28,272 nt of DNA from Gemmatimonadaceae bacterium (GTDB taxonomy: Bacteria; Gemmatimonadota; Gemmatimonadetes; Gemmatimonadales; Gemmatimonadaceae): positions 1 through 28,272 of the forward strand of contig JBBDYC010000003.1 in assembly GCA_040901985.1 (NCBI GenBank), written 5' to 3'. A program made the position numbers. Positions 13,401 to 16,400 of the stretch are shown here, piece after piece (within the stretch, counting starts at the first letter, position 1; every line of letters begins with the position of its first letter).

Positions 13401-16400
13401 GCCGCCAGCAACGCCGGCGCCACGGCCAGCGCGTGCACCCGCAACGCGAACCCCGACGCGAGGAGCGCCAACCCCGACTGCGCGAACCAAAACTGGAACT
13501 CGGCCATCCGCTGATGCACCAGCGGCTGGCCGAAGAAGCGCGGGACCACGTGCAGCGCGACGCCGTAGATCATCTGCGTCACGAAGCCGAGGAAGGCGAG
13601 GTGCAGGTGCGCGGTGCGATAGACCGTCAGTGACGGGACGAGCGCCATCGCGACGCCGAGCAGGATCGCCGAGGAGAACCAGAGAAGGCTGGCCTTGATG
13701 AACGCGCGGACAAACCAATCCATCGTCAGGCCACCATCAGGCGCGTGAGGCTCCGCGGGCGCGCGGTGAGGTCGGCGACGCTATACCCGTCGAGCACGCC
13801 GAGGAAGGCGGTGAGCGCGGCGTCGAGGGCCGGTGCCAGCGCGCAGGCGGGCGCAATCGGGCACTGGTTGGTGGCGGGGTCAAAGCACTCGACCAGCGCC
13901 ATGTTGTCCTCCATCGCGCGGACGACCTCGCCGACGCTGATCGCCTCGGCCGGCCGGGCGAGGCGCACCCCGCCGATGCGGCCGCGGACCGTCTCCACAT
14001 AGCCGCACTGGGCAAGTCGGGCGACAACCTTGGCGAGGTGATCCGCGCTCATTCCCATCCGGCGCGCGATGTCGGCGATGCGCGCCGGCGCGTCGCCGCC
14101 GTGGATGCCGAGGAAGATGAGGGCGCGGAGCGCGTTGTCGGTGTGCCGGGTAAGGCGCATGGCAGGTCCGGTGCGGTTCCGGTGCGGGAATGGGCCGAAC
14201 GGGACGGTACGGGAGGCGAGGTGCGGGGATTCCTGACACGAAATCCGGGGAATTCTGACTGTATAAAAGATGCATAGAATCTGCACCTTTAACACATCCG
14301 GGGCAAGCCCGGATCGGCCGGCCGTTCCGCCGGTGCATCACCTCACCCCACGAGGTCCGTATGTCCTTCGTCTCCCGTCCCCGCCTGCTCGTCGCCGCCG
14401 CCGTCCTCGGCGCCCTCGGCGTCGGGTACGCCTGCAGTGGTGGTCGCTCCGGTTCCCTCGTCAGCAACGCGAGCAATGCTCAACGCGTCTATGTGGCGCC
14501 GGGCGAGCACGACGAGCTCTACGCCTTCCTCTCCGGCGGCTTCAACGGTCAGGTCGGCGTCTATGGGCTTCCTTCCGGCCGCCTCCTCCGCCTCCTCCCC
14601 GTCTTCGCGCAACACGCCGAGAACGGCTGGGGCTACTCCGAGGAGACGAAGCCGATGCTCGAGACCTCGTACGGCTTCATCCCGTGGGACGACCTGCATC
14701 ACACCGCCCTGTCCCAGACCAATGGCGAGGACGATGGCCGCTGGCTCTTCGTGAACGGGAACAACACGCCGCGCGTGGCGCGCATTGACCTCACGCACTT
14801 CGAGACGACGGAGATCCTCGAGATCCCCAACGCCGCCGGGAATCACGCGTCGCCGTTCGTCACCGAGAACACCGAGTACATCGTGTCCTCGACGCGCTTC
14901 AGCATCCCGGTGCCGAACCGCGACGTGCCGATTGACCAGTACAAGCAGCACTTCCGCGGCCAGGTCTCCTTCATCACCGCCGACCAGCCCGGGAAGATGG
15001 ACATCGCGTTCCAGCTGATCGTGCCGGGCTTCAACTACGACCTGGCCCGGGCCGGCAAGGGGCCGTCGGCGGGGTGGATGTTCTTCTCGTCGTACAACAC
15101 CGAGCAGGCCAACACGCTGCTCGAGGTGAACGCGTCGCAGGCGGACAAGGACTACATCGCCGCGGTGAACTATCGCGCGGCCGAAGCCTGCGTGAAGGGC
15201 GGCAAGGGCCGTCGCGTCGCGGTGGACTACCGCCACAACTATATGGACGAGTTCAGCCGCGTCGCGCGCTCCAACCGGCGCACCAGCGTGCTGCAGATGA
15301 CGCCGGCCGACTGCCCGGGGGTGATGTACTTCCTGCCGACGCCCAAGTCGCCGCACGGCGCCGACGTGGATCCGACCGGCGAGTACATCGTCGCCGGCGG
15401 CAAGCTCGCCGCGGTCATCCCGGTGCACTCGGCCACCAAGATGCTGAAGGCGATCGCCGACCGTGAGTTCGAGGGGGAGCTCGAGGGGATCCCGGTGCTC
15501 CGCTATGCCTCGACGCTCGCCGGTGAGGTGCAGGAGTCCGGCCTCGGACCGCTCCATACCGAGTTCGACGGCAAGGGCTACGCCTACACGTCCATGTTCA
15601 TCTCGTCCGAGATCGTGAAGTGGAAGCTTGGCACCTGGGAGGTCGTGGACCGCGCGCCGACTTACTATGCGGTCGGTCACCTGATGATTCCTGGCGGCGG
15701 GACGCGGAAGCCCTACGGTCGGTACGCCCTGGCGATGAACAAGATCACCAAGGACCGCTACCTCCCGACCGGTCCCGAGCTCGCCCACTCGGCCCAGCTC
15801 TTCGACATCTCCGGCGAGCGGATGCAGCTTCTGCTCGACTTCCCGACGATCGGTGAACCGCACTATGCGAACGCCATCGAGGCCCGGTTGGTGAAAGACC
15901 GCCAGATCCGCTTCTACCAGCTCACCGAGAACCGGCATCCGCAAGTCACGCGCACGGCGCGGGAGGCGGGGATCGAGCGCCGGGGGAACGTCGTGCGCGT
16001 CCGGATGACGTCCATCCGCTCGCACTTCACGCCCGACAACATCGAAGGCATCCGGCTCGGCGACACCGTGTACTTCCACCTGACGAACCTCGAGCAGGAC
16101 TGGGACGTGCCGCACGGTTTCGCGATCCTCGGGGCGACGAACGCCGAGTTGCTCGTGATGCCCGGCGAGACGCGCACGCTGATGTGGGTGCCGAATCGCG
16201 TCGGCGTCTACCCCTTCTACTGCACCGACTTCTGCTCGGCGCTGCACCAGGAGATGCAGGGGTATGTGCGGGTCTCGCCGGCGAACGCCACCGTGGCGCT
16301 CACCGCGACGACCGGGCGTCCGCCACCGCGGCCGGGGAACTGACCGATGACGTCCCGGGCCCGCTGGGTCGTGCTCGTCGCCACCGCGCTGATGGCAACG

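What a model noticed while it worked through the whole genome (the two positions that open the first line are those of the whole stretch)
13726..16343. Clade II nitrous-oxide reductase operon is under an NO-sensing NsrR repressor in Pseudogemmatithrix
A three-cysteine NsrR-type Rrf2 gene is transcribed divergently from nosZ, and an NsrR-type palindrome AAGRTGCA-N7-TGCAYCTT lies between them (C3:14267-14289). N2O reduction in this genus is thus predicted to be de-repressed by nitric oxide through NsrR rather than by FNR/DNR-type activators.
Evidence so far: nosZ in 20 of 30 other genus genomes. Of 22 nosZ loci with upstream DNA (this genome, G001, 20 more), 21 have both the divergent Rrf2 gene with C-x5-C-x5-C and the box; the one locus without the gene also lacks the box. 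It is the best match to the NsrR consensus in this genome's intergenic DNA. Search NsrR+nosZ+clade II listed no such report.
(Added by a program. Inside this text positions count along the whole contig: contig position 1 is position 1 of the stretch shown here. "Call 12" and the like, gene names such as g00115 and contig names such as C1 are that model's own, and its searches are not shown. The text may have been shortened before it was handed on; [...] marks where a part breaks off. The agent that wrote the report below was given it as the finding of a first reader that could run no searches.)

Follow-up and report, generated by a model that had tools for sequence, protein, structure and literature searches.

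The report
Two-signal switch on N2O reductase
The genes that let this bacterium destroy the greenhouse gas nitrous oxide appear to be held off by a dedicated nitric-oxide-sensing repressor and switched on by a separate low-oxygen activator; this is a sequence-based prediction of a known kind of control, newly mapped in this group.

Summary
Gene and palindrome are real. The Rrf2 gene (13726-14160, minus) faces clade II nosZ, and the 8-7-8 palindrome (14267-14289) is unique in the genome. Gene plus box occur in 37 of 38 testable genus genomes. The cysteine spacing is C-x7-C-x5-C, not x5-x5. NsrR type is well supported: Asp8 is present, the protein lies outside the RirA clade, and a matrix built only from genus boxes picks the E. 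coli ytfE and hmp sites.

(1) Tandem sites just upstream recur at a conserved usp promoter and at the promoter of a NarL-type regulator paired with a FixL-like heme-PAS kinase. nosZ probably needs low-O2 activation plus NO de-repression, and its -10 lies inside the box. (2) Other family genera keep the divergent gene, several with in-register palindromes of altered sequence.

Novelty is limited. NsrR repression of nosZ was shown in Magnetospirillum (a clade II lineage) and predicted elsewhere in 2005, and Rrf2 genes at clade II nos clusters were reported. This scan also noted Rrf2-nos pairs on other DNA. No assay; the effector and any effect on nosZ are inferred. New variant of a known kind.

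The parts
13726..14160 (-). NsrR-type Rrf2 regulator, 144 aa: Asp8, Arg12, recognition-helix His and Lys, C-x7-C-x5-C
13262..13723 (-). 153-aa membrane protein with a heme-copper-oxidase/NnrS-like helical fold, probably co-transcribed with the regulator; beside it in 28 of 29 genus loci
   Evidence: structure look-alikes COX1/NnrS, TM about 0.8; PF00115 31 bits, below cut-off
14221..14237 (+). Upstream site A, a TAGGG-N4-CCCTA-like palindrome; inferred activator site
14243..14259 (+). Upstream site B, 22 bp after site A, ending in invariant GAC at the expected -35 position; inferred activator site
   Evidence: (GAC 29 of 29; used as the anchor)
14267..14289 (.). NsrR-type 8-7-8 operator AAGATGCA-N7-TGCACCTT
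14275..14280 (+). Inferred -10 hexamer TAGAAT of the nosZ promoter, inside the operator, 15 nt after site B (genus consensus TAnnnT at box positions 11-16)
   Evidence: column counts T 24, A 29, T 28 of 29; 14-15 nt spacing at most usp promoters; not mapped
14296..14314 (+). Predicted hairpin with conserved (G/A)CAA just after the operator; possible 5' end of the nosZ mRNA
   Evidence: folding without shuffle control; weak
14361..16343 (+). nosZ, Sec-dependent clade II nitrous-oxide reductase
16347..16934 (+). 195-aa ORF after nosZ, no family hit; nosB-like by position (recalled, not tested)
16938..17405 (+). nosL
17407..18657 (+). nosD
18654..19388 (+). ABC ATPase, nosF by position
19385..20176 (+). 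ABC-2 permease, nosY by position
20209..20646 (+). small c-type cytochrome ending the operon

Best explanation
The nos operon promoter takes two inputs. A dedicated NsrR-type [4Fe-4S] dimer binds the 23-bp palindrome that covers the -10 element and blocks transcription until NO damages its cluster; it probably also represses its own divergent gene and the NnrS-like membrane gene. A NarL-family response regulator (genome C3:78270-78962), phosphorylated by the adjacent FixL-like heme-PAS kinase (C3:79015-80853) when O2 falls, binds two tandem sites ending at the -35 position and activates the promoter. Full expression would need low O2 and NO. Shown: the genes, motifs, their conservation, co-loss and geometry. 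Inferred: the cluster, NO as effector, repression of nosZ, the activator's identity and its O2 signal.
For: Protein: Asp8, the NsrR fourth ligand (Asn in RirA; PMC10510648), is in 29 of 29 genus copies, against Asn or Ser in 6 of 6 above-cut-off RirA proteins. The best PDB hit is S. coelicolor NsrR, 3e-22. Gemmatimonadaceae copies form one clade (SH-aLRT 99) apart from RirA (95) and IscR. Some of the nearest outside relatives sit beside hmp, ric or nnrS. Operator: a matrix from genus boxes only ranks the E. coli ytfE site first in 4.0 kb (29.0 bits; training range 22.8-38.4) and the hmp site first in 3.5 kb (12.9 bits). Gene and box are lost together in G025, and 14 genus genomes show neither nosZ nor the regulator. 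The invariant centre A and the TAnnnT columns put a -10 on the nosZ strand. Activator: the tandem element persists at nosZ promoters without the Rrf2. It ranks usp, the response regulator itself and a PRTase-erythromycin-esterase locus next after nosZ among 2131 upstream regions. It is conserved at 19 of 20 usp promoters and at all 19 other genus regulator promoters with upstream DNA. A matrix built from regulator promoters alone scores 29 of 30 nosZ regions above the shuffled 95th percentile. The kinase PAS domain hits FixL best (4e-19), keeping the heme His in 21 of 21 and the aligned distal Arg in 20 of 21.
Against: No binding, expression or start-site data. The protein is below the NCBIfam NsrR cut-off (117 of 182 bits) and scores higher on RirA (136 of 193), although an hmp-linked Caulobacter NsrR-like protein also scores 130 on RirA. 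Deep tree branches are unresolved and the tree is the quick one. G013 kept regulator and box after losing the nos genes, which fits autoregulation. 8 of 20 further family orthologues have no nosZ within about 3 kb, and several nos-linked ones show no clear in-register palindrome. G. aurantiaca is reported to express nosZ in O2, in cultures with no nitrite added (PMC10100939 passages), so a strict AND gate is doubtful. The upstream motif is GC-rich, the genome has 5 LuxR-type domains, 3 other usp genes, coxB and nirK lack the motif, and PRTase homologues mostly lack it (4 of 12). With the regulator-only matrix the nosZ site ranks only 24th of 5.28 million positions.
Confidence: 0.62

Rival explanations
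1. The box mainly autoregulates the leftward nsrR plus NnrS-like membrane gene (a small NO-stress unit). nosZ is driven by the low-O2 activator alone and is little affected by NO.
For: The box lies about 60 nt from the regulator start in most loci. Autoregulation is conserved in streptomycete nsrR (PMC4432287). G013 keeps box and gene without nos. The downstream gene is NnrS/HCO-like, and nnrS is a classic NsrR target (PMC1274295). An earlier scan note on another Gemmatimonadota genome reached a similar view there.
Against: The -10-like columns are on the nosZ strand inside the box, at the spacing seen at usp promoters. The 14 family loci keep the divergent regulator-nosZ pair without a close homologue of the membrane gene directly behind the regulator. 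Regulator and nosZ co-occur in 39 of the 41 genus genomes that have either.
Confidence: 0.17
2. The regulator does repress nosZ through the box, but its physiological effector is not NO: O2/redox, iron-sulfur status, nitrite-derived species or, least likely, N2O itself.
For: Below the NsrR cut-off. 24 of 40 nosZ genomes show no above-cut-off nirK. This genome shows no Nor, hmp, ric, nnrS or hcp. Magnetospirillum NsrR is reported O2-sensitive. Operator arms have drifted from the NsrR consensus in other genera.
Against: Asp8 ligation stabilises the cluster against O2 and low iron. Some of the closest outside relatives flank NO-detoxification genes. NO is a common inducer of nos genes (PMC1274295).
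Confidence: 0.13
3. NsrR repression is the only specific control; the upstream tandem element is a sigma-factor or UP-like promoter feature, not an activator site.
For: Site B ends at the -35 position with invariant GAC; no binding data link it to the response regulator.
Against: Site A is a palindrome, strongest at the response regulator's own promoter. It has a fixed 22-23 bp repeat and is confined to a few promoters.
Confidence: 0.08

Closest known systems
NsrR of Magnetospirillum gryphiswaldense MSR-1 (PMC11014258; passages read)
   Same: NsrR binds the nosZ promoter (EMSA, ChIP-qPCR), nosZ rises in the deletion, and an NO donor releases binding; the genus is placed in nosZ clade II (PMC6440730).
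   Different: There it is a global regulator in a complete denitrifier with degenerate sites. Here it is a nos-linked, apparently one-site regulator with a sharp palindrome, in partial or non-denitrifiers.
NsrR of E. coli and S. coelicolor; predicted NsrR regulons (PMC1274295, PMC4432287, PMC9338935)
   Same: Asp8 plus three Cys, helix His and Lys, 23-bp inverted repeat; cross-recognition of the E. coli ytfE/hmp sites in silico; nos predicted under NsrR in P. profundum and Neisseria in 2005.
   Different: The target is a clade II nos operon rather than hmp/ytfE/hcp. No NO-detoxifying enzyme was found in this genome. Arm sequences vary by genus.
B. subtilis ResDE plus NsrR on nasDEF/hmp; staphylococcal NreBC; mycobacterial DosRS; rhizobial FixLJ
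   Same: A low-O2 two-component activator combined with an NO repressor (review passages, PMC8139620). NreC binds GC-rich palindromes. A usp and PRTase/erythromycin-esterase regulon resembles DosR (recalled, not checked). The PAS domain resembles FixL.
   Different: FixL-type sensor with a NarL-family regulator in Gemmatimonadota; none of the pairings is tested here.
Rrf2 genes at clade II nos clusters (PMC6264515; Melioribacter, PMC3534657)
   Same: An Rrf2 gene beside clade II nosZ was noted and a regulatory role suggested.
   Different: The passages read give no subfamily, operator or effector. In other Gemmatimonadota families the neighbour is a different Glu8 clade with another palindrome.
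RirA (iron sensor of rhizobia)
   Same: C-x7-C-x5-C spacing; highest NCBIfam score.
   Different: RirA has Asn8, no helix His, and forms a separate clade.

Membership tests
NsrR | Rrf2 fold with three C-terminal Cys, the last two five residues apart | tested here: met
   C-x7-C-x5-C in 29 of 29; aligned to the ScNsrR cysteines
NsrR | Asp8 as fourth cluster ligand, with Arg12 | tested here: met
   criterion from PMC10510648
NsrR | NCBIfam NsrR equivalog cut-off (182 bits) | tested here: not met
   116.8 bits. The model is narrow: only 1 of 81 Pseudomonadota genomes passed it although 28 had matches. Filed as NsrR-type, not as that equivalog.
NsrR | Groups with characterised NsrR to the exclusion of RirA and IscR | tested here: inconclusive
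   Own clade (99) inside the NsrR/RirA group, outside RirA and IscR; branching with E. coli NsrR unresolved; ScNsrR and B. subtilis NsrR not in the tree
NsrR | 23-bp inverted-repeat operator resembling gATGyAT-N5-ATrCATc | tested here: met
   2 mismatches to the published consensus; genus matrix recovers the E. coli ytfE and hmp sites
NsrR | [4Fe-4S] cluster; DNA binding lost on NO | not testable with these tools
   needs purified protein
RirA | Asn8, RirA clade, NCBIfam cut-off 193 bits | tested here: not met
   Asp8; 136 bits; separate clade
Clade II (Sec-dependent) NosZ | TIGR04246 above cut-off; nosDFYL follow, no nosR | tested here: met
FixL-type O2-sensing kinase | PAS domain with heme-ligating His and distal Arg, plus kinase domains | tested here: met
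   (His 21 of 21, Arg 20 of 21); residue roles recalled; heme binding not testable
FNR/DNR-controlled nos promoter | TTGAT-N4-ATCAA box and an FNR/DNR protein | tested here: not met
   1 of 30 regions has a 2-mismatch look-alike; single CRP-family hit without Cys

The most novel reading that the evidence does not exclude
Gemmatimonadaceae that mostly cannot make NO or N2O themselves run their N2O reductase through a two-input gate: a FixL-like low-O2 two-component activator and a nos-dedicated NsrR that reads NO from neighbouring denitrifiers as a proxy for coming N2O. The operator has co-diverged with the regulator genus by genus. Other Gemmatimonadota families independently recruited a different, uncharacterised Glu8-type Rrf2 with its own TTATCAT-N6-ATGATAA palindrome, so Rrf2 repression may be a recurring way clade II nos operons are controlled.
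Probability: 0.4. Interest if true: 0.75.

Novelty: new variant of a known kind. Interest (0 to 1): 0.56.

Why it matters
Gemmatimonadota nosZ transcripts track N2O consumption in soils (PMC9530729 passages), yet what switches clade II nos operons on is poorly defined outside a few Proteobacteria. This locus gives base-level, testable predictions: an operator over the -10, activator sites at the -35, and named regulators. If right, the N2O sink activity of these organisms depends on both O2 decline and NO or nitrite supplied by other microbes. That would predict a lag, or weak induction, when only N2O is present, which matters for emission models and for inoculants. The principle itself, NsrR on nosZ, is already established, which caps the surprise.

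Tried and rejected
RirA or IscR identity: rejected on residue 8, helix and tree. FNR/DNR control: no box and no suitable protein. A wider NsrR regulon in this genome: no second strong site; nirK is not among the top 15 sites. NO-removal genes: hmp, ric, nnrS and DUF1971 not found by tblastn, hcp not found, no Nor among 2 PF00115 matches (the large one was read by eye as an aa3 oxidase), cytochrome bd not found; flavodiiron NO reductase, nirS and nrfA were not tested. The genus matrix fails on most other genera because the arms differ; palindrome scoring was used instead (median 6.6 vs 5.0, Mann-Whitney p=0.0008, but kin are not independent and in 5 of the 14 loci the best palindrome was not the in-register one). 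PRTase promoter conservation was weak (4 of 12, partial homologues). Expression: no RNA holder listed. The plasmid search gave only generic 'Rrf2' names. The NreC motif paper search returned nothing relevant, so the NreC and DosR motif comparisons are recalled. An ANTAR reading of the leader hairpin was considered by eye and dropped (loop does not fit the recalled pattern). The own-genome look-up of earlier findings returned nothing. No structure or complex prediction was run.

Full report
OBSERVATION. The window holds a complete clade II nos operon (nosZ 14361-16343, TIGR04246 919.8 bits; then an unassigned ORF, nosL, nosD, ABC ATPase, permease and a small cytochrome c). Facing it is a 144-aa Rrf2 gene (13726-14160, minus), followed by a 153-aa membrane protein whose predicted fold resembles heme-copper oxidase/NnrS helices. 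AAGATGCA-TAGAATC-TGCACCTT sits at 14267-14289, 106 nt from the Rrf2 start and 71 nt from nosZ. It is the only window match (chance mean 0.06) and the only exact match in the genome. Against the published 19-bp NsrR consensus it has 2 mismatches and ties with 10 other sites, so that consensus alone would not single it out.

DISTRIBUTION IN THE GENUS. nosZ was found in 40 of 55 genomes and the regulator in 40 of 55; 39 have both and 14 neither (many genomes are incomplete). Of 30 loci returned, 29 have the divergent gene and box (19 with 0, 9 with 1, 1 with 2 mismatches). Eight more genomes and a second G021 locus also have both. That makes 37 of 38 genomes with upstream DNA; G020 and G051 could not be tested. 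G025 has lost the gene and the left arm of the box but keeps the upstream element. G013 shows the reverse: regulator, box and leader are kept and the nos genes are absent from the site. This fits recent deletion or an autoregulatory role. Above-cut-off nirK was found in 17 of 55 genomes, 16 of them among the 40 with nosZ.

IS IT NsrR? NCBIfam gives RirA 136 bits and NsrR 117 bits, both below cut-off, so the models do not decide; an hmp-linked Caulobacter protein also scores 130 on RirA. The residue that separates the two is position 8: Asp ligates the cluster in NsrR, Asn is found in RirA (PMC10510648 passages). All 29 genus copies and the 14 family copies have Asp8 and Arg12. The 6 above-cut-off RirA proteins have Asn or Ser and lack the recognition-helix His that contacts DNA in S. 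coelicolor NsrR (PMC9338935 passages). In a quick maximum-likelihood tree (106 of 118 rows; 12 near-duplicate, truncated or poorly aligned rows dropped; SH-aLRT only) the 26 Gemmatimonadota copies form one clade (99) apart from RirA (95) and IscR; its branching with E. coli NsrR is unresolved. Among the non-Gemmatimonadota relatives examined, the Caulobacter locus scanned faces DUF1971-hmp with a similar palindrome, a Verrucomicrobiota locus faces ric, and a Myxococcota locus is near nnrS; others show no NO-related neighbour. JGI labels close homologues as nitric-oxide-sensitive repressors (automatic names). The strongest independent test: a matrix built only from the 29 genus boxes picks the E. 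coli ytfE site as best in 4.0 kb (29.0 bits, within the training range) and the hmp site as best in 3.5 kb (12.9 bits), and finds nothing upstream of iscR or nsrR.

PROMOTER ANATOMY. Box positions 11, 12 and 16 read T, A, T on the nosZ strand in 24, 29 and 28 of 29 loci. An invariant A at the free centre of a palindrome suggests a -10 element; in this window TAGAAT lies at 14275-14280. A hairpin with conserved CAA is predicted 5-7 nt after the box in most loci (no shuffle control). Upstream lie two further conserved sites 21-23 bp apart, ending 5-7 nt before the box. They are not the Rrf2's: they persist at family nosZ promoters without it (for example L035 27.0 and L059 24.1 bits; shuffled maximum 10.4). 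Ranked over 2131 upstream regions of crudely called genes, the next hits after nosZ are a usp gene, a NarL-family response regulator (C3:78270) and a PRTase plus erythromycin-esterase locus. The usp site is conserved in 19 of 20 genus loci and is followed by a -10-like hexamer at 14-15 nt in most, the spacing seen at nosZ. The regulator's promoter carries GTAGGGGAATCCCCTA-like sites in all 19 other genus loci with upstream DNA. A matrix from those sites alone scores 29 of 30 nosZ regions above the shuffled 95th percentile, but ranks this genome's nosZ site only 24th of 5.28 million positions. The gene after the regulator is a kinase whose PAS domain matches FixL best (4e-19), with the heme His kept in 21 of 21 and the aligned Arg in 20 of 21. 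Against: three other usp genes, coxB and nirK lack the motif, PRTase homologues mostly lack it (4 of 12), and four other LuxR-type domains exist. FNR/DNR control is unlikely.

BEYOND THE GENUS. Of 29 family nosZ loci from other genera, 14 have the divergent orthologue at 51-65% identity. Several carry 8-7-8 palindromes with other arms, mostly in the same register: AAGTGGAA/TACCACTT, ATCTGGTA/TCCGAGAT, AAGTTGCA/TGCAGTTT, and ATCCTCTA/TAGAGGAT (shifted). Of 20 further family orthologues, 11 face nosZ, 1 lies 2 kb away and 8 have no nosZ nearby; several nos-linked ones show no clear palindrome. None of 31 loci from other families has this orthologue. Instead 12 of them, and 2 family loci, have a distinct Glu8, C-x6(5)-C-x5-C Rrf2 clade (97), many with a TTATCAT-N6-ATGATAA-like element.

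MECHANISM. Most likely the holo-dimer occludes the nosZ -10 and is released by NO, while the FixL-like kinase and its regulator activate from the -35 side under low O2. All steps from binding onward are inferred. This genome has nirK but no Nor, hmp, ric, nnrS or hcp by the tests run, and most relatives show no nirK, so the NO would often be external. A strict gate is not assured: G. aurantiaca is reported to express nosZ in O2 without added nitrite (PMC10100939 passages; the primary papers by Park 2017 and Chee-Sanford 2019 were not read, and that strain's locus was not examined by name).

PRIOR WORK. Direct NsrR repression of nosZ with NO release was shown in M. gryphiswaldense, where NO also induced nosZ without NsrR (PMC11014258 passages); Magnetospirillum is placed in clade II (PMC6440730 passages). 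NsrR control of nos was predicted for P. profundum and Neisseria (PMC1274295, section 9 and passages). Rrf2 enrichment at clade II nos clusters (PMC6264515 passages) and a possible Rrf2 control of Melioribacter nos (PMC3534657 passage) are in print. The listings of searches for NsrR+nosZ+clade II, Rrf2+nosZ(+Gemmatimonas), G. aurantiaca+nosZ+regulator, NsrR+nosZ+repress and Gemmatimonad+NsrR showed no title or abstract describing this operator or the two-component input in Gemmatimonadota. The library omits most subscription journals, most listed papers were seen only as listings, and no supplements were read (the 2005 site tables and regulon databases may bear on this). Other papers used: PMC4432287, PMC9530729 and PMC8139620 (passages). 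DosR and NreC motif and regulon likenesses, and FixL residue roles, are recalled. Earlier notes of this scan describe Rrf2-nos pairs in another Gemmatimonadota genome and in Actinomycetota; they are leads, not support.

VERDICT. The feature is real and the NsrR-type reading is largely right but incomplete: probability about 0.8 that the protein binds the box and senses NO, about 0.62 for the full two-input model. New variant of a known kind; interest 0.56.

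Noticed in passing
L057, L059, L062, L066, L068, L069, L071, L074, L075, L079, L080, L083, L087, L089 (upstream of or near nosZ): A second, distinct Rrf2 clade (mostly Glu8, C-x6-C-x5-C) lies near clade II nosZ in 14 of 60 non-genus Gemmatimonadota loci, often one gene ahead of nosZ, many with a TTATCAT-N6-ATGATAA-like palindrome upstream. Effector unknown.
   Followed up: partly
genome C3:78233-80853 (L135:6234-8854): NarL-family response regulator plus FixL-like heme-PAS kinase, conserved in the genus (20 of 24 other genus genomes), with a strongly conserved tandem palindrome at its own promoter and at a usp gene (C8:187947-188861): a small candidate hypoxia regulon.
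   Followed up: partly
L152 (G013:C180:1-3240): The nos genes are absent between the conserved leader and the sequence matching the downstream heptosyltransferase end, while regulator, box and membrane gene remain: a natural deletion.
   Followed up: partly
window 14296-14314: Leader hairpin with invariant CAA in or near its loop across 29 genus loci; could be an RNA-binding or stability element. Unexplained.
   Followed up: partly
window 2282-3304 (-): Integron integrase (TIGR02249 440 bits, above cut-off); cassettes and attC sites not examined.
   Followed up: no
genome C9:267993-270661: nirK follows what looks by eye like a tRNA 3' half next to an integrase gene, as at the edge of an integrated element. 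It has neither the NsrR box nor the tandem sites, and no NO reductase was found in the genome.
   Followed up: partly
window 13262-13723 (-): Single-module heme-copper-oxidase/NnrS-like membrane protein, also near nosZ in some loci without the Rrf2; a candidate NO- or copper-handling accessory.
   Followed up: partly
L002 (genome C9:197921-198313): The genome's only other Rrf2 has Glu8 and C-x9-C-x5-C and groups loosely with IscR-like proteins; target unknown.
   Followed up: no
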